A DNA stretch of 64,000 bases from an uncultured Thermoleophilia bacterium (GTDB taxonomy: Bacteria; Actinomycetota; Thermoleophilia; UBA2241), in contig CAVOMB010000056.1 in assembly GCA_963696935.1 (NCBI GenBank), positions 3,331 through 67,330 of the forward strand, read 5' to 3'. Shown here piece after piece: positions 1 through 53,268 of this stretch (the first letter of the stretch is position 1; every line of letters begins with the position of its first letter). A program made the translations under genes and the position numbers. Under the pieces are notes generated by a model that was not told the DNA's origin, did no database searches, and worked only from the letters and a program-made list of their open reading frames with translations.

Positions 1-627
1 CTTGGCGGCCAGCGCCTCCGGCCCGCCGCGCAGTTCCTCGGCGACGGCGCACATCACGGAGAGGTCGCCGCCGTGCTCGGACGTCATCACCATCGGCTTG
101 GTGGTGTTGGTGACCATCGCCTTGAAGCTCTCGAGGTAGGAGCGCGCCGGCTCGATGTCGCTTGGATGCGCGAACGACATGACGAAGTCGATGTTGGGCA
201 GCGCGTCGCAGAGGCGCGCGGCGCGCGCCACGTCGGCCAGCACGCTGATCCGGTGCTCGCCGGTCTCGAGGTCGTAGGTGCTCATCAGGTCGGAGCCGGT
301 CCCGAAATAGCTGTTGTGGCCGCCGAGGGACATCGCCGGCTCGCCGGCGCGGTCGAAGATGTCGACGACCGCCGGCGCCGTTGCCCGAGCCTTCTCCACG
401 AGCTCGCGCGGGATGCGCACCAGCTCGGGCTCGGTCAGCTCCGCGCCGGCCGCGACCAGCAGTTCGCGCGCGCCGGGGTGCAGGACGCGCATGCCGACGG
501 ATCCGATGATCTCGAGTGCAGCCTCGTAGATGGCCGTCTTGTCTGCCGCGGTCAGGTAGGTCAGCCGGCCGGGACGCGGCCGTACGTCTGGCGCGCTCGT
601 TTGGGGGGTCGGGTCTGAGGTAGGCAC
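1..627 (-). CDS. MttB-superfamily (trimethylamine methyltransferase family) protein, N-terminal 209 codons; 3' end runs off the window
   Basis: My own minus-strand translation. GTG at 627 is preceded by GGAGGAG. The product reads ...TYLTAADKTAIYEAALEIIGSVGMRVL...YFGTGSDLMSTYDLETGEHR...LPNIDFVMSF... and is collinear with the paralogs at 45690-47126 and 48868-50280. The listed + ORF 73-618 is its antisense shadow. Confidence 0.8.
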   Translation of the reverse strand, partial: MPTSDPTPQTSAPDVRPRPGRLTYLTAADKTAIYEAALEIIGSVGMRVLHPGARELLVAAGAELTEPELVRIPRELVEKARATAPAVVDIFDRAGEPAMSLGGHNSYFGTGSDLMSTYDLETGEHRISVLADVARAARLCDALPNIDFVMSFAHPSDIEPARSYLESFKAMVTNTTKPMVMTSEHGGDLSVMCAVAEELRGGPEALAAK

Positions 628-780
628 CGTAGGCTCCTCCGTGGTCCAGATGGGGGTCTCGCGTCGTTCACCCTGACGGCACCCTCGCACCGCCGCAAGC
701 TCCTCCTGCTGTTGTCCAGAGTATTGAACTCGTTTTCGTTGTCGTGCGGCGAGGTGACCGTTATGCTGGATTGACGGGAG

Positions 781-1659
781 GTGGAAGCGATAGCCGACGC
801 ACGCAGACCCGACGAAGAAGGCACGACCTGGGGAGCCGCACGCGTCCTCGACGTGCTCGAGTTCCTCGGCCGGCGCACGAGCCCGGCACCGGCCAGCATC
901 ATCGCGTCCTCGTGCCACATCCCGCGCTCGAGCACCTACGGTCTGCTCAACCTGCTCAAGGAGCGGCGCTTCGTGAGCTACCGCTCCGACGAGCGCGCCT
1001 GGTCGCTCGGCTCGGCGGCGTTCGAGCTCAGCGCCGACGCACCGCTGTTCGCCCACGGTCTCGCCGTGCTGCGCGCGTTCGCCACGTCGTCGCGCGGACT
1101 CACCGTGCAGCAGATCGCGTTCGGCGCCGGCATGTCGCGGGTCGCCGTCACGCGCATCCTGCCGTACCTCGTCGAAAGCGACCTGCTGCATGCGGACCCG
1201 GGCGGCACCTACTCGCTCGGCCTCGAACTGGTCAGCCTCGCCTCGCGCGTCGGCTGGGTCGACCGCCTGCGCATCACCGCCCGGGCGCACCTCGTGCGCC
1301 TGCGCGACGCCACCGCGGAGACCGCCAACCTCATCGTGCTCGACGGCGACCATGCGATCTACGTGGACCAGGTCGAGAGCTCCTACGCTCTGCGCCACAG
1401 CGGCTGGGTGGGTCGCCGCGTGCCGCTGGCGGGCACCGCGACCGGCGGCGCCTTCGGCGACCGCACCCGGTCCCACGTGGCCAAGGACGCCGTGGAGACC
1501 GGCGTGACCTCCATCGTCTGCGTCATCGACCTGCCCGGCGACGATGCCGCGGTCGGCATCACGGCGCCGAGCTGGCGCATCGAGGAGTTCGGCGTCCCGC
1601 GTGCGCAGCAGATGGTCGAGGCTGTGGCGCGGGAGATCTCCCAGAGGGTGCGCGGCTGA
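781..1659 (+). CDS. IclR-family transcriptional regulator
   Basis: 292 aa. N-terminal winged HTH (ARVLDVLEFLGRR...IIASSCHIPRSSTYGLLNLLKERRFV) followed by an IclR-type effector domain. The start codon is uncertain because GTG 781 sits directly on a GGGAG. Confidence 0.75.
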   Translation: MEAIADARRPDEEGTTWGAARVLDVLEFLGRRTSPAPASIIASSCHIPRSSTYGLLNLLKERRFVSYRSDERAWSLGSAAFELSADAPLFAHGLAVLRAFATSSRGLTVQQIAFGAGMSRVAVTRILPYLVESDLLHADPGGTYSLGLELVSLASRVGWVDRLRITARAHLVRLRDATAETANLIVLDGDHAIYVDQVESSYALRHSGWVGRRVPLAGTATGGAFGDRTRSHVAKDAVETGVTSIVCVIDLPGDDAAVGITAPSWRIEEFGVPRAQQMVEAVAREISQRVRG

Positions 1660-1859
1660 TCGATCCTCTGCGGCGCGTCCGGCCCACCAGCAGGCCTGGA
1701 ACGGCGGCGCCCATTTGCGTCCGTGATTTCGGACAACCCCCCCTGCGTCTGGGCATCCCGCTCGGCACCGCCTACATTCGCCAGTGAGTCAGCAGCGGCG
1801 CCCCCGCGGCCCTTCGGGCCGCCCGGCGCGGCGCCTACCCCGCGAGAGGAGACACCCCG

Positions 1860-3383
1860 GTGACCATCATCCTGGACGGCTCGTCGCTCACCGTAGAGAA
1901 GCTCGTCGCCATCGCCCGCCACGGCGAGCAGGTACAGCTCGACCCGGCAGCCGCCGAGCGCATCAACGTCTGCCGCGCCATGCTCGAGGAGAAGATCGCG
2001 GCGCGCGAGATCATGTACGGCACCAACACCGGCATCGGCGAGTTCAGCGAGATCGTGCTCGACGACGAACAGGTCCAGCAGTTCCAGCGCTTCCTCGTCT
2101 ACAACCACGCTGCAGGCATCGGCGAGCCTGCGCCGGCCGAGGTCGTGCGCGCCGCCATGGCGGCGCGCGCCAACGTCCACGCCCACGGCAACTCCGGCAA
2201 CCGGCTGGTGATCACGCAGACACTCATCGAGTGCCTCAACAAGGGCGTCACGCCACTGATGAGCTCCAAGGGTTCGGTCGGCGCCTGCGGCGACCTCGCC
2301 CCGATGGCCCAGATGGCGCTCGTCATGATGGGCGAGGGCGAGTCCTTCTACCAGGGTGAGCGCATGCCCAGCCGAGAGGCACTCGAGCGCGCCGGCATCC
2401 CGGTGCCCGGGCTGGAGGCGCGCGACGGCCTGGCCACGATCAACGGCTCCAACGTCCTCACCGGCATGAGCGCGCTCCTCTGCTACGACGCCGAGCGCTG
2501 GTTCAAGCAGGCGGAGATCGCCGCGGCGATGAGCCTCGAGGCGCTGCTCGCCAACCTCAAGCCGTACAACAGCAAGCTGCACGAACTGCGCGGCTTCTCC
2601 GGCGCCGTGCGCAGCGCCGCCGCCATCCGCGCCTGCATCGCCGAGAGCGACCTCGCCACCGGCAAGATCAAGACCAAGGTGCAGGACGCGTACTCCATGC
2701 GCTCCACGCCTCAGGTCATCGGCGCCGCACACGACGCGCTCAAGTGGGCGAAGAGCCAGGTCGAGATCGAGCTGAACGGCGTCGGCGACAACCCGATCTT
2801 CGTGCCCGAGGACAAGCTGACGCTGACCGGCGCCAACTTCCAGGGCACGCCGGTCAGCCTCCCCATGGAGATGGTCGGGCAGGCCATCACCATGGTCTGC
2901 GTACTCAGCGAGCGCCGGCTCAACCGCATGGAGAACACGGCGACCAGCCAGGGTCTGCCCGACTTTCTCACGCCGAACCCCGGCTTCTACAGCGGACTGA
3001 TGCTCAGCCAGTACACGGCCGACATGCTGATCACCGAGCAGCGTATCCTCGCGGCGCCGGCGGCGACCATGAGCATCCCCGCCGCCGCCGACCAGGAAGA
3101 TTTCGTCTCCATGGGCATGAACACGGCCCTCAAGAACCGGCAGATCCTCGAGAACGCCTGCGGGATTCTCGGCATCGAGTTCATGGCCGCGGCTCAGGCC
3201 CTGGACTTCCGTGACTTCACGCCGGGCAAGGGCGTGCGGAAGGCCAAGGAGGTCATCCGCACGCATGTCGACCACCTCGACGTCGACCGTCCGCTCTTCC
3301 CCGACCACAACGCGATGGCCGCCCTGGTCAAGTCGGGTGAGATCCTCGACGCCGTCGAGGCGGAGGTCGGCTCGCTCGGCTGA
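1860..3383 (+). CDS. Histidine/aromatic amino-acid ammonia-lyase family (HAL/PAL) enzyme with an Ala-Cys-Gly triad
   Basis: 507 aa. RBS AGAGGAG lies 8 nt before the GTG. HAL-family blocks present: YGTNTGIGEF, YNHAAGIG, GSVGACGDLAPM, GLATINGSN, QDAYSMRSTPQVIGA, GANFQGTP, DQEDFVSMG. Confidence 0.85.
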   Translation: MTIILDGSSLTVEKLVAIARHGEQVQLDPAAAERINVCRAMLEEKIAAREIMYGTNTGIGEFSEIVLDDEQVQQFQRFLVYNHAAGIGEPAPAEVVRAAMAARANVHAHGNSGNRLVITQTLIECLNKGVTPLMSSKGSVGACGDLAPMAQMALVMMGEGESFYQGERMPSREALERAGIPVPGLEARDGLATINGSNVLTGMSALLCYDAERWFKQAEIAAAMSLEALLANLKPYNSKLHELRGFSGAVRSAAAIRACIAESDLATGKIKTKVQDAYSMRSTPQVIGAAHDALKWAKSQVEIELNGVGDNPIFVPEDKLTLTGANFQGTPVSLPMEMVGQAITMVCVLSERRLNRMENTATSQGLPDFLTPNPGFYSGLMLSQYTADMLITEQRILAAPAATMSIPAAADQEDFVSMGMNTALKNRQILENACGILGIEFMAAAQALDFRDFTPGKGVRKAKEVIRTHVDHLDVDRPLFPDHNAMAALVKSGEILDAVEAEVGSLG

Positions 3384-3420
3384 GTCCGTCCCCGACCGGG
3401 GAGCGCCGGCGGCGTCAGGT

Positions 3421-3463
3421 CGGCCCAGGTGCGCGGGTCCTAGACACCCGCGCACCTGGGCCG
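3421..3463. terminator. Perfect 18-bp stem / 7-nt loop hairpin downstream of the lyase gene
   Basis: cggcccaggtgcgcgggt-cctagac-acccgcgcacctgggccg. No clear U-tract follows, so terminator function is inferred from position only. Confidence 0.4.
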
Positions 3464-3563
3464 ATGTCCCTCTCAAGCAGAGGACGCCGCAGGCCGAAAC
3501 CATAAGAGAGGAGCGCACCCCCCAGGGGTGGCGCTCGCCCCACTACCCGGGAGACGACGGACG

Positions 3564-3803
3564 ATGACAGAACCGCAGGACAACTTCACGCGGCGCGAGG
3601 TGACCGCGCGCGGGTTCGAGGCACAGTGCGTCGCCGACGAGTCGGTCGTCTACCTCTGGCACCTCGGCTGTGGACTGCGCGCGGACAAGCGGGACGGCTC
3701 CACCATCCTCATCACCGACCCGGCCACGCTACCGGAGGGTCCGTGGATGGCGACGGAGCTGGGACGCGAGGAGCTGCGTGACCCGACGCTGCTGGAGCTC
3801 TGA
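3564..3803 (+). CDS. Hypothetical small protein (79 aa)
   Basis: ATG at 3564 follows GGGAGA. Strong GC3 bias supports coding. I recognise no motif. Confidence 0.45.
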   Translation: MTEPQDNFTRREVTARGFEAQCVADESVVYLWHLGCGLRADKRDGSTILITDPATLPEGPWMATELGREELRDPTLLEL

Positions 3804-3848
3804 GTCCGACGGGCAGCCCACGGAGCGGCCACTGAGGATGGGGGTGGG

Positions 3849-3893
<45 letters not shown>

Positions 3894-4139
3894 TTCGCCT
3901 CTGCGCGCGCCGCACGCTGCCGATGGGTGCCATTCGAGCCTGAGCTGAGAAAGCACGACCTGAACTCATCTCGCGGCATCGGGCTGGGACCGGTCGCTGC
4001 CGCTGCCGTGCGTTCGCCCTCCACACCCCGGCCGGCGGGCACCCCGGGCGCTCAGCTGCGTCGTCAGGCTCTCGGCAAGCAGGTCGCGTGCAGGTCCTTC
4101 TGGCGTCGGGCAGGCCGCGTGACTTCCAGCTGCTTGCGC

Positions 4140-4376
4140 CTAGCGCCTCGGTCGCCGGCCCCCTGGTCGCAACGGCAGATGGTCACCGCTCCTGTAGCTG
4201 ATGACGAGGGCGACCGTTGCGCCAAGCAGCGAAAGGAAGAGCGTGAGAAGGAACCCGAGGGCGAAGCCGCCGCCGATCGACCTGCCTTTGCGACGAGAGA
4301 TGGTCATGCACCAGAAGCCGACGCAGACAGGAAGCACAACGCAGGAGAGCCAAAGCACGAGTTCTTCGCGTCCCAT
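4140..4376 (-). CDS. Small membrane protein (78 aa, two predicted TM helices)
   Basis: Two hydrophobic stretches (LVLWLSCVVLPVCVGFWCM and GFALGFLLTLFLSLLGATVALVI). GC3 is lower than in the flanking core genes. The RBS is weak. Confidence 0.4.
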   Translation of the reverse strand: MGREELVLWLSCVVLPVCVGFWCMTISRRKGRSIGGGFALGFLLTLFLSLLGATVALVISYRSGDHLPLRPGGRRPRR

Positions 4377-9243: not shown

Positions 9244-9299
9244 CCGGCGATGTGCAGTCGGTCTGACCACTCTGACCACTGTCGCAGGGGCGGCCTCGA

Positions 9300-10108
9300 T
9301 CATTGTCTGCATCTCCTTCGCCGGCGCTGCCTATGCCGCGCCTGCCGCGTCATCGTCGATCTGCAGCGGGTGAGCTTCATCGAGGCTGCCGAGGAATAGC
9401 CCTGCGCTATCAGCCTGCCCGGCGGTGACTGCCCTCGATGGCGCCACTTCTGTCCCTCCTCCTTGCGCAGCGCCTGGCGCACGTGGATCCGTGAGCGCAC
9501 AAGGTCGACGTCGGTGACGCGCAGACCGAGCAGCTCGCCGCGGCGCAGTCCGGTGGCGGGGTCGAGCGCGACCGGTACAAAGCGCCCCCTCGCTGCGACC
9601 CTTGTGGTTGCCCTTCGGTCACCGTCTCCCGGCGCAGCCGCCGAGAGCAGCGCCGCCTGCTCGCTCGGCGCGTAGACGTGGAAGGGCGGCGGCTCCTCAT
9701 CGGGCAGCTCGACGTAGGTGAGGGGGTTCTCGGCGATCAGCCGCCAGGCGACCGCCAGGTTCATGGCGGCGCCGACGAAGATGAGGTGCTTGCGGACGGT
9801 GCTCGACGAGAGTTCGCCACTCTCCAGCTGCTTCTTCTTCCAGCTGGCGGCGACCTTGGGCGTGAAGCGCGCGAGAGTGACTGAAGCAAGGTCGCAGCGC
9901 ATGTGCTTGAGGTGGCCCGCGTCGCGGGCCCGCGTCGCCGGCGCCAGCTTGTCGCGGCCGTCCAGGTAGCGCTGGCAAGAAGTCGGGGACCGACTCGCCG
10001 GAGGGCTTCACGTGGCGGCCTTCGTAGCCGTCGTTCTGCAGCTTGGCGTCGAGCCGCTTGGCCTCTTCCTCGCTGACTATCGTGCGGCGGGGGCGGGAGA
10101 GAAAGTCC
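9300..10108 (-). pseudogene. Tyrosine recombinase/integrase remnant (frameshifted, catalytic C-terminus lost)
   Basis: ...TIVSEEEAKRLDAKLQNDGYEGRHVKPSGESVPDFL shifts frame near 9975 to ...QRYLDGRDKLAPATRARDAGHLKHM...TPKVAASWKKKQLESGELSSSTVRKHLIFVGAAMNLAVAW...GLRRGELLGLRVTDVDL. No HxxR or catalytic Tyr region follows, and there is no N-terminal Met. Confidence 0.7.
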
Positions 10109-10119
10109 CTGCAAATGAG

Positions 10120-10196
<77 letters not shown>

Positions 10197-10353
10197 GCGA
10201 GAGTACGCTGACGGCCGGTCAACCCACGACCGGCCGTTGTGCAGCGAATGCGGAGTCTAACACACGCGAAACGGCGCAGCAAAGCGAGGCGGAGCCCCTC
10301 CGGGAGCGGTCACGACAGCGGCCAGGGGACGCGTGGGGCGGCCTTGGGCGGCG

Positions 10354-11625
10354 TCAGCCCGGCGCAGCGCCGTCGGTCTTGGCGGCGTGCCGGGCCGAGT
10401 AGCCGCTGCGGCGCGCCCAGACCACGTACTCGAAGAGCGCGCGGTAGGCGACGGGCCTTCCGGGCAGCCCGTGCAGGCCGCGCACGCGCGGAGCCGCAAG
10501 CGCATCCTCATAGGCCTCGACGATGCGGTCGGTGATCTGCGCCCACGAGAGATCCGCGGCGGCGGCGATGCCGGCGGCCGCGAGCCGCCGCCGCTCCGCC
10601 TCGTCCTGCAGCAGATCGTAGAGTGCGTCGGCGAGCGCGACGGGATCTCCGGGTGGCACCAGGCGGCCGGCCTCGCCGTCGCGCAGCACCGCGCGATAGC
10701 CGGGCAGGTTGGAGGCGACGACCGGCACCCCGGCGGCCATGCCCTCCGCCAGCACGATGCCGAAGCTCTCCGCCGCGCGGGACGGCGCGCATAGGACCTC
10801 GGCCTCCCCCAGTTGCGCGACCTTCACCGCGTCGTCCACCCAGCCGAGCGCCTCCAGCCCCGTGAGGTCGACCGGGAGGTCACTGCCGGCGCGCTCCGTC
10901 TCGAGCACCTGGCGACGCGTGGCCCCGGCGACTACGAGCGTCGCGTCGGGCATACGCTTGCGCAGGAGCGCGAAAGCCTGCAGAAGCACGCCGAGGCCCT
11001 TGCGAGGCTCGGGGCGCCCAACGAAGAGGATGCGCCCCGGCACCTTGGCGGCGCCGACCGCCGGGGCGTACATCTCCACCGGGACACCGTTCGGGATGAT
11101 CCGGAACGGGCCGGGAAAGCGGCTCTGCGGGAAGGACCGCGCCGCCTCACTGACGGCGATGCGCACGTCGATCCGCTTCATCACGGCGCCGGCGACCAGC
11201 CGCCCGCGGTCGTAGAAGGCCGAGGACTCCAGCGCGGCATGGAACGTCCCCACCACGGGCGACGCAGCCATGACCACCGCCATCATCGAGACCGCCGGTG
11301 TACAGGGCTCGTGCACGTGCAGGATGTCGAAGCGGCCGTATCTGACGGCGCGGTCCATGCGCGGCGCGATCTGCGGGGAGAAGTTGACGTATGCGAGTGA
11401 CCCGTTGGTGGGGACGGGGAGGGCGTTGCCCATGGGGATGAAGCGTTCCGTCACGGTCTGCCGGCGGCTGTCCACGTGCCGGCGGGCGGGCGTCATGGCT
11501 CCCACCGGCGCGATGATCCACGGTTCGTGACCGCGCACCTCCAGTTCCGCGGCAAGGTGTTCGATGTGGTGGTTGACCCCACCGGGGACGGTCCAGGAAT
11601 AGGGGGTGACGAGACCTACGCGCAC
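10354..11625 (-). CDS. GT4 glycosyltransferase (PimA-like mannosyltransferase type)
   Basis: I chose the start at GTG 11625 (VRVGLVTPYSWTVPGGVNHHIEHLA...) after GGGGGTG. A GT-B fold EX7E-type C-terminal half is present (ESFGIVLAEGMAAGVPVVAS). The longer listed ORF N-terminus is Arg/Ser-rich non-coding-like sequence. Confidence 0.8.
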   Translation of the reverse strand: MRVGLVTPYSWTVPGGVNHHIEHLAAELEVRGHEPWIIAPVGAMTPARRHVDSRRQTVTERFIPMGNALPVPTNGSLAYVNFSPQIAPRMDRAVRYGRFDILHVHEPCTPAVSMMAVVMAASPVVGTFHAALESSAFYDRGRLVAGAVMKRIDVRIAVSEAARSFPQSRFPGPFRIIPNGVPVEMYAPAVGAAKVPGRILFVGRPEPRKGLGVLLQAFALLRKRMPDATLVVAGATRRQVLETERAGSDLPVDLTGLEALGWVDDAVKVAQLGEAEVLCAPSRAAESFGIVLAEGMAAGVPVVASNLPGYRAVLRDGEAGRLVPPGDPVALADALYDLLQDEAERRRLAAAGIAAAADLSWAQITDRIVEAYEDALAAPRVRGLHGLPGRPVAYRALFEYVVWARRSGYSARHAAKTDGAAPG

Positions 11626-51798: not shown

Positions 51799-53268
51799 GT
51801 GAAGCGAAACCTGCACGCCGGGCGGCCCAGCTCGGGCGGGCTCAGCCTGAACGTGTTCACGGAGGCTGAGCTCAACGACGTCCACCTCGGCTCGCTCGAG
51901 ATCCTCGAACGCACCGGGATGTGGGTCGAGGCCGACGATGCGCTCGACATCTTCAGCGATGGTGGCTGCATCGTGGACCGCGAGACGCGCATGGTCCGCA
52001 TCCCGCCACACCTGGTGGAGGAGGCAATCCGATCCGCTCCACCCAAGAGCTTCCTGAACGGGCGAGACCCCGACCAGGACATCGTGCTCGAGGCCGGGCG
52101 CGTCTACGTCTCCAACTTCGACGAGGGCATCATGATCGTCGACGCGCGTACCGGCGAGTACCGCCACCCCGTGCTGGAGGATGTGCACGAGGCGGCTCGC
52201 CTGGTCGACGCCCTCAGCGACATCGACACCTACGAGTCGGCGGTGCACCCGGGCGACGTCCCCGAGGAGACGGCGAGCCTCCGCAAGTGGTGGGCGGCGA
52301 CCCAGAACACGGGCAAGCCAGTCGGCACCGAGGCGACGAGCGCCTACGACTGTCGCAGACTGATCGAGATGGCCACGGTGGTCGCGGGCGGCGAGGATGA
52401 GTTCCGCCGCCGCCCGCTCATCGGCTTCGGCGTCTGCCCGGTGAGCCCGCTCAAGCTGCCGCGCGACGCCACCGAGGTGATCATCGAGTCGGCGCGCGCC
52501 TGGTGCCCGGACACGATCCTCAGCATGGCGATGTCCGGAGGATCCTCCCCAGTCACTCTCGCCGGCACGCTGGTGCTGCACAACGCCGAGGTGCTCAGCG
52601 GCATCGTGCTGGCGCAGCTCGTCGAGCGCGGCTGCCCCTGCACCTACGGGTCGTCCACGACGGCCATGGACCTGAAGCTGGCGGCGGCGTGTGTGGGCTC
52701 GCCGGAGCTCGCCCTCTTCTCCGCCGCCTGCGCCCAGATCGCCCGTCACTACCTGCTGCCAAGCTTCGTGGCCGGGTTGTAGAGCGATTCCAAGCTCGGT
52801 GACGCGCAGACCGGTCACGAGAAGACCCTCACCGGACTCCTTCCTGCGTTGGCAGGCGCCAACCAGATCTACGGTGCGGGGATGATCGAATCGGGCGTCA
52901 CCTTCGACCTTGGCCAGCTGGTCATGGACAACGAGATCGCGCGGATGATCAAGTTCGCCGTCGGCGGCATCGCGGTCACCGACGAGACCATGGCGATCGA
53001 CGACATCGCCAAGGTGGGCGCGTTCGGCGACTTCCTCTCGCTGGACGCCACGCTCAAGCACATGCGCGAGCTCAGTCAGCCGGCAGTGCTCGACCGCCGC
53101 GTGCGTGAGGACTGGGAGAGCAGAGGGGCGACCGACCTCGCCTCCCGCTCGCGCGCCCGGGCGCTGGAGCTTGTAGAGTCTCATCAGCCGGCGCCCGTCG
53201 ACCCCGACGTGGCCGAAGAGGTTCGCCACATCATTGCAGCGGCAGACCGTGAGAAAGGCGTGGCATGA
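51799..53268 (+). CDS. mttB: Trimethylamine:corrinoid methyltransferase MttB with an in-frame TAG (52780-52782) at the pyrrolysine position
   Basis: GTG 51799 follows GGAGGT. Listed ORFs 51799-52782 and 52849-53268 are in the same frame and separated only by one TAG. The merged product is 489 aa, with context ...HYLLPSFVAGL-TAG-SDSKLGDAQTGHEKT... The stop overlaps the mttC start (ATGA). Confidence 0.7.

What the first reader, a model, noticed from the sequence alone, without database searches (positions are those of the whole stretch)
1860..3383. HAL/PAL-family lyase with a natural Ala-Cys-Gly in place of the Ala-Ser-Gly MIO triad, beside MttB-family and IclR genes
The product keeps the full HAL active-site scaffold: Tyr in YGTNTGIGEF, NHAAG, INGSN, QDAYSMRSTPQV, DQEDFVSMG. 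The autocatalytic triad, however, reads GSVG-A142-C143-G144-DLAPM, with the Cys codon TGC at 2286-2288. These are the same residue numbers as the Ala142-Ser143-Gly144 of Pseudomonas HAL. I recall that an engineered Ser143Cys HAL is active, so a dehydroalanine/MIO could still form, but a native Cys looks unusual. The enzyme is also a hybrid: NFQGTP is PAL/TAL/aminomutase-like, while N-H(83) is HAL-like. The HAL family includes ergothionase, which eliminates trimethylamine from ergothioneine. An MttB-family gene lies 1.2 kb away and a Pyl-type mttB is in the window. A histidine betaine (hercynine/ergothioneine) is therefore a speculative but attractive substrate that would feed TMA to the methyltransferases.
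Basis: partly seen in the sequence, partly recalled or inferred. Interest (0 to 1): 0.6.

Follow-up and report, generated by a model that had tools for sequence, protein, structure and literature searches.

The report
Histidine ammonia-lyase with natural Ala-Cys-Gly triad
This gene most likely encodes an ordinary histidine-degrading enzyme whose self-made cofactor is built from a cysteine instead of the textbook serine; the swap is real and recurs many times in a widespread, uncharacterised branch of the family, but nothing suggests the enzyme releases trimethylamine.

Summary
ORF 1860-3383 (+, 507 aa) is a full-length HAL/PAL-family protein. GCC-TGC-GGC at 2283-2291 aligns without gaps to Ala142-Ser143-Gly144 of Pseudomonas putida HAL.

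The Cys is not an error. Four independent metagenome runs show no alternative base there. Cys also occurs in 32 of 82 orthologous loci and 44 of the 120 closest database proteins.

The gene belongs to a tightly conserved subclade (73-97% identity) that spans at least eight phyla. All HAL catalytic and imidazole-binding residues are invariant in it. Only residue 143 varies, flipping Ser<->Cys at least 15 times (codons TCN, TGY and AGY; never Thr).

The clade behaves as HutH:
- It is the only PF00221 gene in 18 of 30 genomes, all of which carry urocanase.
- hutU lies directly downstream in three loci.
- Eight of the 30 genomes have no MttB at all.

All characterised trimethylammonia-lyases lack the MIO triad, so the hercynine/ergothioneine-to-TMA idea is not supported for this gene.

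Relatives do carry a separate MIO-less, ergothionase-like paralogue beside orthologues of the same MttB genes. The MttB-IclR-HAL arrangement is conserved within Thermoleophilia, so a link to methylated-histidine catabolism stays open.

Verdict: a new natural variant of a known enzyme; moderate-low interest.

The parts
1860..3383 (+). hutH-like gene: MIO-type histidine ammonia-lyase of the 'Asn82-His83 / NFQG(T/S)P / QEDFVSMG' subclade, 507 aa
   Evidence: ORF. PF00221 525 bits. Best PDB hits are P. putida HAL, E 4.6e-88. NCBIfam hutH models score just under their cut-offs. 120 homologues at 78-97% identity with full coverage.
2283..2291 (+). Codons GCC-TGC-GGC = Ala142-Cys143-Gly144, the MIO-precursor tripeptide with Cys in place of Ser
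   Evidence: Sequence. Ungapped alignment to HAL A142-S143-G144. No alternative base in four metagenome runs. Ser/Cys interchange among orthologues.
1845..1852 (+). Shine-Dalgarno-like AGAGGAGA ahead of the GTG start
   Evidence: Read from the sequence. AGAGGAGAC is identical in the aligned close relatives L003 and L006, and diverged in L009.
1719..1734 (.). Conserved palindrome GTCCG-N6-CGGAC inside a conserved block (CATTTGCGTCCGT..CGGA); candidate operator of the adjacent IclR regulator (inferred)
   Evidence: Both arms are invariant in the alignment of the IclR-HAL spacer from the window, L003, L006 and L009, although the rest of the spacer is only 53% conserved. Sequence read.
1773..1778 (+). 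TACATT, a -10-like hexamer in the conserved motif GCCTACAnTC; candidate promoter of the HAL gene (inferred)
   Evidence: The surrounding motif is nearly invariant in the four aligned spacers; L009 has G at one position. The sigma-70 consensus scan itself found nothing, so this rests on conservation only.
781..1659 (+). IclR-family regulator with two tandem HTH_IclR domains plus an IclR_C domain; probable regulator of the divergent MttB genes and/or the HAL gene
   Evidence: Pfam: HTH_IclR with 2 stretches, plus IclR_C. Orthologues at 81-92% identity sit in the same position in L003, L006 and L009.
1..627 (-). 5' part of a non-pyrrolysine MttB-family methyltransferase gene ('MttB1'). It runs off the window's left end and is followed by a paralogue, 'MttB2'
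   Evidence: PF06253. Full genes lie at G000:C56:2464-3957 and 1063-2460 with no in-frame stop. GTG start with GGAGGAG upstream, read. Equally distant from TMA MttB (7xcl) and glycine-betaine MtgB (2qne/9yce).

Best explanation
The gene encodes a histidine ammonia-lyase (HutH isozyme; L-histidine -> trans-urocanate + NH3). It uses the usual MIO electrophile, but here MIO is made from Ala142-Cys143-Gly144.

Inferred steps:
- After folding, the Gly144 amide N attacks the Ala142 carbonyl and water is lost.
- The residue-143 side chain is then eliminated as H2S rather than H2O.
- This gives the same methylidene-imidazolone as in Ser enzymes.
- Catalysis then proceeds as in HAL. Tyr53 acts as the base. 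His83 and Glu413 hold the imidazole. Gln275, Arg281 and Asn311 hold the carboxylate.

The protein belongs to a very conserved, cross-phylum HutH subclade in which Ser and Cys at position 143 are functionally interchangeable. Cys (TGY) also lies one mutational step from each of the two serine codon sets (TCN and AGY), both of which occur at this site.

In this Thermoleophilia genome it is a second copy, beside a canonical hutU/hutH/hutI cluster on another contig. It has its own conserved upstream palindrome and an adjacent IclR-type regulator. It lies divergent to two non-Pyl MttB methyltransferase genes.
For: Shown here:
- Full HAL scaffold, with the triad in register.
- In 83 clade sequences Y53, H83, N195, Q275, Y278, R281, N311, F327, E413, A142, G144 and D145 are all invariant. 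Only position 143 varies (50 Ser / 33 Cys). No nearby position co-varies with it.
- At least 15 Ser<->Cys changes on the clade tree, at least 8 forced by well-supported branches.
- Codons are TGY 33, AGY 32, TCN 18, with no Thr.
- In 30 genomes carrying a clade member, all have urocanase. In 18 the clade member is the only PF00221 gene, and 4 of those 18 are ACG.
- A full-length urocanase gene lies directly downstream on the same strand in L014 (ACG), L030 (ACG) and L082 (ACG, sole HAL).
- TGC is supported by independent read-derived contigs.
- The own genome has a canonical ASG HutH followed by an imidazolonepropionase-like ORF and a glutamate-formiminotransferase-like start, both read by eye and not scanned. 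Urocanase lies 4 kb upstream on the same contig.

Established knowledge (my recollection; the papers are not in the searchable library):
- Langer, Reck, Reed and Retey, and Langer, Lieber and Retey, Biochemistry 1994. The P. putida HAL S143C mutant matures to fully active enzyme, whereas S143A is inactive.
Against: - No biochemical data exist for any member of the clade.
- The NCBIfam hutH models score just under their trusted cut-offs (522.7 vs 524; 499.5 vs 539).
- The clade has its own invariant substitutions next to catalytic residues: Asn82 for Ser, Gln328 for His, Phe415 for His. A shifted specificity therefore cannot be excluded.
- This genome already has a canonical HutH, so the copy is not needed for plain histidine use.
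- In a raw count, ACG is commoner where a second canonical HutH exists (Fisher p = 0.004). That could mean relaxed or altered function, but the effect is not significant on phylogenetically independent pairs.
- The conserved MttB-IclR-HAL synteny in Thermoleophilia hints at a more specific role.
Confidence: 0.8

Rival explanations
1. Specialised isozyme of a methylated-histidine pathway. The enzyme is still an MIO lyase. In Thermoleophilia it works with the neighbouring non-Pyl MttB methyltransferases, which would demethylate N-alpha-methylated histidines such as hercynine. It then acts on the product, either histidine or possibly N-alpha-methyl/dimethyl-histidine, releasing ammonia or a methylamine.
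For: - Orthologues of MttB1/MttB2 (58-85% identity) flank the clade HAL in L003, L005, L006, L009 and L010. The IclR orthologue is also present in L003, L006 and L009. In L009 the genome's only hutU directly follows the MttB.
- MttB1 orthologues in other Thermoleophilia sit next to two other HAL-family types. One is an ASG HutH-like gene immediately downstream (G040, G064). The other is an MIO-less ergothionase-like gene (G062; also G002/L003).
- An Anaerolineales genome has MttB-MttB followed by a G040-type HAL.
Against: - Clade members are the sole HAL beside hutU in many genomes, and 8 of 30 such genomes have no MttB. The clade's basic job therefore does not need MttB.
- These Thermoleophilia genomes hold 20-37 MttB hits each, and the syntenic genomes are related, so adjacency is not independent evidence.
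- No MttB family member is known to use a histidine derivative.
- As I recall, N,N-dimethyl amino acids are inhibitors rather than substrates of MIO lyases (Viergutz and Retey).
Confidence: 0.12
2. One reading: a trimethylammonia-lyase (ergothionase or histidine-betaine lyase) that releases trimethylamine for the MttB methyltransferases.
For: - It belongs to the same superfamily as ergothionase (6s7j, E 8.6e-53).
- The imidazole-binding His and Glu are retained.
- MttB genes are adjacent, and an mttB with an in-frame TAG lies in the window.
Against: - All characterised trimethylammonia-lyases (Td_ETL, Swoo_3913, SO_3057, SO_3299) lack the Ala-Ser-Gly/MIO motif. In ergothionase the segment is one residue shorter, GEGD.
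- This protein and all 82 orthologous loci keep a three-residue A-(S/C)-G.
- A quaternary amine cannot add to MIO.
- The protein is far closer to HAL than to ergothionase.
- hutU operons and MttB-free genomes argue against it.
- A distinct MIO-less paralogue fits that role better in relatives.
Confidence: 0.03
3. The Cys variant does not form MIO. It would then be a catalytically dead or regulatory paralogue, or an enzyme using the thiol itself.
For: - No experiment shows MIO in a native ACG protein.
- In the raw count, ACG is enriched in genomes with a canonical HutH back-up.
Against: - 180 of 507 columns, including every catalytic residue, are invariant across phyla, which indicates strong purifying selection.
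- ACG and ASG alternate between close sisters without any compensating change.
- ACG enzymes are the only HAL next to hutU in L082/G027 and in G021, G026 and G030.
- The engineered S143C HAL is active (recollection).
Confidence: 0.03
4. Tyrosine/phenylalanine ammonia-lyase or 2,3-aminomutase, suggested by the PAL-like NFQGTP motif.
For: - NFQGTP resembles the plant PAL motif (recollection; no paper in the library contains the string).
- Tyrosine aminomutase structures score E 2e-80.
Against: - His83 and Glu413, the imidazole ligands of HAL, are invariant.
- The TAM, PAM, TAL and PAL NCBIfam models all score far below their cut-offs (353 vs 501, 331 vs 800, 298 vs 700, 196 vs 519).
- hutU adjacency.
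Confidence: 0.02

Closest known systems
Histidine ammonia-lyase HutH (EC 4.3.1.3), e.g. Pseudomonas putida HAL (PDB 1B8F, 1GKM)
   Same: - Same fold and length, E 4.6e-88, ungapped over the MIO loop.
- Identical catalytic and substrate-binding residues.
- Orthologues sit in hutH-hutU operons and are the sole HAL in genomes that have urocanase.
   Different: - The central triad residue is Cys in about 40% of the clade, including this gene.
- Clade-invariant Asn82, Gln328 and Phe415 replace Ser, His and His.
- The clade is 73-97% identical across phyla, yet only about 39-43% identical to other HutH, with few intermediates (60, 52 and 50% representatives).
- It scores just under the NCBIfam hutH cut-offs.
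Engineered P. putida HAL S143C (Langer, Lieber, Retey 1994; recalled, not retrievable here)
   Same: Same tripeptide Ala-Cys-Gly at the same residue numbers. The mutant was reported to mature into fully active enzyme, i.e. Cys can be the dehydroalanine/MIO precursor.
   Different: That was a laboratory mutant. Here Cys is the natural state, fixed in whole subclades and gained or lost at least 15 times.
MIO-less trimethylammonia-lyases: ergothionase Td_ETL (PDB 6S7J), histidine-betaine lyase Swoo_3913, SO_3057, SO_3299
   Same: Same superfamily (PF00221). The catalytic Tyr, the imidazole-binding His and Glu, and the carboxylate ligands are shared.
   Different: - They lack the triad and MIO, whereas this gene keeps a three-residue A-C-G.
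- Similarity is much lower (E 8.6e-53).
- Relatives of this genome carry a separate paralogue (GSLGESD) that does match this family best.
MIO aminomutases and TAL/PAL (SgcC4 TAM 2OHY, AdmH 3UNV, RsTAL 2O6Y, plant PAL)
   Same: MIO scaffold. The NFQGTP string resembles PAL (recollection).
   Different: It has the HAL-type His83 and Glu413, and it scores below the cut-off on every TAM/PAM/TAL/PAL model.

Membership tests
HAL/PAL aromatic amino acid lyase superfamily (PF00221) | Full-length match to the Lyase_aromatic domain | tested here: met
   525.4 bits, model positions 1-465 of 466.
MIO-dependent ammonia-lyases | [quoted passage not shown] | tested here: not met
   The loop and register are intact, but the centre is Cys (A-C-G). 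The literature gives Ser as invariant there.
MIO-dependent ammonia-lyases | Actual formation of the MIO electrophile | not testable with these tools
   Inferred from three things: Ser/Cys interchange under strong purifying selection, ACG enzymes as the sole HAL beside hutU, and the recalled S143C precedent.
Histidine ammonia-lyase HutH (EC 4.3.1.3) | Catalytic Tyr53. Imidazole ligands His83 and Glu414. Carboxylate ligands Gln277, Arg283, Asn313. Also Asn195, Tyr280, Phe329. | tested here: met
   All present (own numbering Y53, H83, N195, Q275, Y278, R281, N311, F327, E413) and invariant in 83 clade sequences.
Histidine ammonia-lyase HutH (EC 4.3.1.3) | Score above the curated NCBIfam hutH cut-offs (TIGR01225 equivalog; NF006871) | tested here: not met
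   499.5 vs 539.15 and 522.7 vs 524: the best-scoring families, but just below cut-off.
Histidine ammonia-lyase HutH (EC 4.3.1.3) | Genomic partnership with urocanase (hutU) / the Hut pathway | tested here: met
   Met for the clade: hutU is directly downstream in L014, L030 and L082 and beside it in L009. The clade member is the sole PF00221 gene in 18 of 30 genomes, all of which have urocanase. For this gene itself, hutU lies on another contig (C59) next to the canonical hutH.
Trimethylammonia-lyases (ergothionase / histidine betaine lyase) | Absence of the MIO tripeptide (shortened GEGD-type loop) | tested here: not met
   This gene has the full GACGD loop. Ergothionase has GEGD, and the MIO-less paralogue of relatives has GESD. 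Literature.
Trimethylammonia-lyases (ergothionase / histidine betaine lyase) | Closest sequence similarity to characterised members | tested here: not met
   6s7j scores E 8.6e-53, ranked behind HAL, TAM, AdmH and TAL structures.
Trimethylammonia-lyases (ergothionase / histidine betaine lyase) | Trimethylamine release from ergothioneine or hercynine | not testable with these tools
   Needs an enzyme assay.
MIO aminomutases / TAL / PAL | Score above the NCBIfam cut-offs for TAM, PAM, FlxA TAL, BagA or PAL | tested here: not met
   353 vs 501; 331 vs 800; 298 vs 700; 210 vs 1000; 196 vs 519.

The most novel reading that the evidence does not exclude
In Thermoleophilia, and perhaps some Anaerolineales, one subfamily of non-pyrrolysine MttB methyltransferases (MttB1/MttB2 here) would form an undescribed catabolic system for N-alpha-methylated histidines such as hercynine. 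Its other parts would be an IclR regulator with two HTH domains, urocanase, and up to three kinds of HAL-family lyase: the ACG/ASG clade, a G040-type ASG HutH and an MIO-less ergothionase-like lyase. The methyltransferases would strip methyl groups, and/or the MIO-less lyase would release trimethylamine for the Pyl-MttB. The Ala-Cys-Gly lyase would be the dedicated isozyme that converts the demethylated product to urocanate.
Probability: 0.25. Interest if true: 0.7.

Novelty: new variant of a known kind. Interest (0 to 1): 0.35.

Why it matters
Reviews and papers describe the MIO precursor as X-Ser-Gly with an invariant serine. I found no paper describing a native Ala-Cys-Gly enzyme.

Here a large, environmentally widespread HutH lineage uses Cys in about 40% of its members and toggles between Ser and Cys many times. 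This has three consequences:
- It is natural evidence that the cofactor can be made by H2S elimination.
- Motif-based annotation rules (ASG) would miss or misjudge these enzymes.
- It offers a ready-made set of natural Ser/Cys pairs for studying MIO maturation.

It does not change what is known about histidine catabolism. The more consequential lead is the repeated pairing of one MttB subfamily with HAL-family lyases and urocanases. That pairing could point to an unknown route for hercynine or methylhistidine breakdown.

Tried and rejected
1. Universal conserved neighbour. I clustered all ORFs in +/-8 kb of 82 orthologous loci. No neighbour is shared by more than about a quarter of loci. The clusters found were sensor kinases, a putative LmbE-like deacetylase, a putative HDAC-like protein and ABC ATPases (labels by eye, not scanned), plus urocanase in 7 loci and MttB in 7. 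Context alone therefore does not define the function.

2. Cys as the bridge between the TCN and AGY serine codon sets. All three codon classes occur at 143, with 22 changes in three-state parsimony and never Thr. However, the control shows that some invariant serines (204, 363, 383) also switch codon sets 7-14 times with no observed intermediate. The bridge idea is compatible with the data but not specially demonstrated. What is special about 143 is that the Cys state persists.

3. ACG tolerated only with a back-up HutH. The raw Fisher test gives p = 0.004, but only 5 phylogenetically independent pairs exist (sign test p about 0.5). Four genomes have ACG as the sole HAL. Rejected as a rule; kept as an open observation.

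4. Compensating substitutions around Cys143. None found; only position 392 (T/V) loosely tracks it.

5. Riboswitch or known RNA upstream. No Rfam match in 1-4300 at E <= 0.1.

6. Sigma-70 consensus promoters. None found.

7. Literature retrieval of the S143C papers and of any native Ala-Cys-Gly report. Not in the held library. The S143C precedent therefore rests on my recollection.

8. MIO-less paralogue in the window's own genome. Not found; there are only two PF00221 hits. Contig C56 begins inside an IS3-type transposase directly upstream of MttB2, and the assembly is 83% complete, so absence is not proven.

9. MttB genes near the clade HAL in Anaerolineales (G008, G015). These are only 35-39% identical to MttB1, so they are not orthologues.
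Full report
**1. Observation**

The ORF 1860..3383 (+) starts with GTG and encodes 507 aa. GGAG lies 9-12 nt upstream of the start. Codons 2283-2291 read GCC TGC GGC.

phmmer against all PDB chains gives P. putida histidine ammonia-lyase as best hit (1gkm, E 4.6e-88). Residues 110-213 of both proteins align without a gap. GSVG-A-C-G-DLAPM therefore lies exactly on GSVG-A142-S143-G144-DLAPL.

Pfam PF00221 matches end to end at 525 bits.
- an IclR-family gene at 781-1659 (+);
- the 5' part of an MttB-family gene on the minus strand, 1-627;
- an mttB with one in-frame TAG about 48 kb further on.

The Cys codon is not an assembly slip. Contigs from four independent metagenome runs laid on 2180-2400 list variants at nine nearby positions but none at 2286-2288. 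All 23 closest database proteins (90-97% identity) read ACG.

**2. What family and clade it is**

The two best NCBIfam models are both hutH, and both score just under their trusted cut-offs (522.7 vs 524; 499.5 vs 539). The TAM, PAM, TAL and PAL models score far below theirs.

The word-indexed protein search returned 120 proteins at 78-97% identity, all about 507 aa. The genome scan returned 80 loci at 73-93% identity. These come from Thermoleophilia, Anaerolineales and other Chloroflexota, Acidobacteriota, Ignavibacteriota, Bacteroidota, Pseudomonadota, Planctomycetota, WOR-3 and Spirochaetota.

In the library clustered at 50% identity, the nearest representatives are only 60, 52 and 50% identical. 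After those, identity drops to about 43%. The gene therefore belongs to a sharply delimited, unusually conserved subclade of the HAL branch.

Within 83 clade sequences, 180 of 507 columns are invariant. These include every residue known to make up the HAL active site: Y53, H83, N195, Q275, Y278, R281, N311, F327 and E413, which correspond to HAL Y53, H83, N195, Q277, Y280, R283, N313, F329 and E414. Also invariant are A142, G144 and D145, and the clade-specific N82, Q328 and F415.

**3. The triad**

Position 143 is the only active-site position that varies.
- ACG occurs in 44 of the 120 closest proteins and in 32 of 82 orthologous loci.
- On a maximum-likelihood tree, Ser<->Cys needs at least 15 changes, at least 8 of them forced by well-supported branches.
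- The window's own subclade (window, L005, L006, L003) is ACG. Its sisters L007, L008 and L009 are ASG (TCC), L011 is ACG and L010 is ASG (AGC).
- Codon classes are TGY 33, AGY 32 and TCN 18. Thr, the other single-step neighbour of both serine codon sets, never occurs.
- No other column tracks the Ser/Cys state, apart from a loose T/V at position 392.

As a control, several invariant serines in the same proteins never change codon set. Others switch 3-14 times without an observed intermediate. So position 143 is distinguished not by codon-set switching as such, but by the long persistence of the Cys state.

Outside the clade, ACG is rare but present. Three of roughly 125 full-length representatives have it, each with ordinary HutH motifs.

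Reviews and papers describe the centre of the triad as Ser. I found no paper with a native Ala-Cys-Gly lyase. The chemical precedent is the engineered P. putida S143C enzyme, which I recall matures to full activity (Langer et al., Biochemistry 1994). It was not retrievable here.

**4. What the clade does**

I searched 30 genomes that carry a clade member.
- All have urocanase.
- In 18 the clade member is the only PF00221 gene. Four of these 18 are ACG.
- A complete urocanase gene lies directly downstream on the same strand in L014, L030 and L082, all ACG.
- Eight of the 30 genomes have no MttB-family gene at all.

ORF clustering of the flanks of 82 loci found no other widely shared neighbour. 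The simplest reading is that the clade is a HutH: histidine to urocanate plus ammonia.

**5. Why not a trimethylamine lyase**

The characterised trimethylammonia-lyases are ergothionase Td_ETL, histidine-betaine lyase Swoo_3913, SO_3057 and SO_3299. All lack the triad and MIO, because trimethylamine leaves without electrophilic assistance. In ergothionase the loop is one residue shorter, GEGD.

This gene and all its orthologues keep a three-residue A-(S/C)-G. A quaternary ammonium group cannot add to MIO. Ergothionase is also a much weaker match (E 8.6e-53) than HAL.

**6. Local context**

The window's genome is a 3.04-Mb Thermoleophilia MAG, 83% complete. It has a second, canonical HutH with GASGD, SHAVG, NFHGEP and QEDHV motifs. 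This is followed by an imidazolonepropionase-like ORF and a glutamate-formiminotransferase-like start, both identified by eye and not scanned. Urocanase lies 4 kb upstream on the same contig, C59. The gene studied here is therefore a paralogue.

The genome carries about 37 MttB-family hits, so an MttB neighbour alone says little. Even so, the arrangement MttB2-MttB1 <- IclR -> HAL is conserved.
- Orthologues of MttB1/2 (58-85% identity) flank the clade HAL in L003, L005, L006, L009 and L010.
- The IclR orthologue (81-92%) is present in L003, L006 and L009.
- In L009 the genome's only hutU directly follows the MttB gene.

The IclR-HAL spacer holds a conserved palindrome, GTCCG-N6-CGGAC (1719-1734), and a conserved GCCTACAnTC (-10-like, 1770-1779). 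This suggests a separately regulated promoter.

The cluster is bounded on both sides in this genome:
- On the left, contig C56 begins in an IS3-type transposase just upstream of MttB2.

**7.

Relatives have a third HAL-family paralogue whose loop reads GSLG-AS-D or GSLG-ES-D, one residue short with no Gly, and hence MIO-less. Its best PDB match is ergothionase, and the loop aligns to GEGD. Where ergothionase has the thiolate-binding Lys, this paralogue has no Lys, as in histidine-betaine lyase.

Its locations:
- 1.2 kb from an MttB1 orthologue in G062;
- about 4 kb from the MttB1/2/3 genes in G002/L003, beside an octopine-dehydrogenase-like gene and a solute-binding protein.

In two further Thermoleophilia (G040, G064), an MttB1 orthologue is immediately followed by yet another MIO-type (ASG) HutH-like gene, and a divergent urocanase lies nearby.

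One MttB subfamily is thus repeatedly paired with HAL-family lyases and urocanases. This supports, but does not prove, a pathway for N-alpha-methylated histidines. Within such a pathway the ACG enzyme would still be the ammonia-lyase step. The MIO-less paralogue was not found in the window's own incomplete assembly.

**8. Verdict**

- The gene is most likely a histidine ammonia-lyase that makes MIO from Ala-Cys-Gly (confidence about 0.8).
The trimethylamine hypothesis for this gene is not supported (about 0.03).
- The native Cys triad is an undescribed natural variant of a known enzyme, with a laboratory precedent. Interest is moderate-low.
- The MttB/HAL/urocanase association is the more novel lead (probability about 0.25). 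It needs biochemistry.

Noticed in passing
L089:3593-5080 (-) (G062); L086:17580-18996 (-) (G002, frameshifted); L003:1-210 (-): A third HAL-family paralogue in relatives lacks the MIO tripeptide (loop GSLG-ES-D or GSLG-AS-D, one residue short). It keeps the catalytic Tyr, Asn-His and Glu. Its best PDB match is ergothionase 6s7j, and it has no Lys at the thiolate-binding position. It lies next to orthologues of the same MttB1/2 genes, an octopine-DH-like gene and a solute-binding protein, which makes it a candidate histidine-betaine trimethylammonia-lyase. It was not found in the window's own assembly.
   Followed up: partly
L088:7662-9260 and 9279-10679 (G040; the same arrangement in G064); L091:13173-18283 (G008): An MttB1 orthologue (66% identity) is immediately followed by a different MIO-type (ASG) HutH-like gene of 533 aa with motifs SHCCG, NFHGQP and NKEDYVSMG. 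An Anaerolineales genome has two MttB genes (35-39% identical to MttB1) followed by a 50%-identical relative of that HAL. The MttB-HAL pairing therefore recurs across phyla.
   Followed up: partly
L088:1014-2615 (-); L090:2649-4310 (-): Divergent urocanase paralogues (36-42% identical to an ordinary HutU) lie within a few kb of MttB1/2 orthologues, in genomes that in some cases also have a normal hutU. They might act on a modified urocanate.
   Followed up: no
window 781-1659 (+): The IclR-family regulator has two tandem HTH_IclR domains (residues 19-67 and about 95-139) ahead of a partial IclR_C match. Gene calls for its orthologue in L003 show the same architecture.
   Followed up: partly
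window 1806-1822 (+): A perfect 7-bp GC hairpin (GCGGCCC-TTC-GGGCCGC) lies about 40 nt upstream of the HAL start codon. It is conserved in L003 and L006 but not clearly in L009. No Rfam family matches it.
   Followed up: partly
L085:1-1000 (G000:C56:1-1000, just left of the window): The contig begins inside an IS3-family transposase (OrfA/OrfB with an rve domain signature, read by eye) directly upstream of MttB2. In relatives a third MttB, a solute-binding protein, an octopine-DH-like gene and the MIO-less lyase follow at that point. The cluster is therefore truncated or broken in this assembly.
   Followed up: partly
whole genome G000; in the window about 51826-53247: There are about 37 PF06253 (MttB) hits in a 3.04-Mb genome, at least 11 of them on contig C56. 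Four have a single in-frame TAG and three a single in-frame TGA. Relatives carry 20-36 hits each.
   Followed up: no
30 genomes with clade members (G001-G030): ACG is commoner where a second, canonical HutH is present: 10 of 14 ACG genomes against 3 of 17 ASG genomes (raw Fisher p = 0.004). The effect is not significant on phylogenetically independent pairs.
   Followed up: yes
window protein residues 135 and 347 (DNA about 2262-2264 and 2898-2900): Two further positions in the clade alternate Ser/Cys: position 135 is Cys in 75 of 83 sequences and Ser in the window; position 347 is Cys in 58 and Ser in 25. Position 135 lies eight residues before the triad.
   Followed up: no
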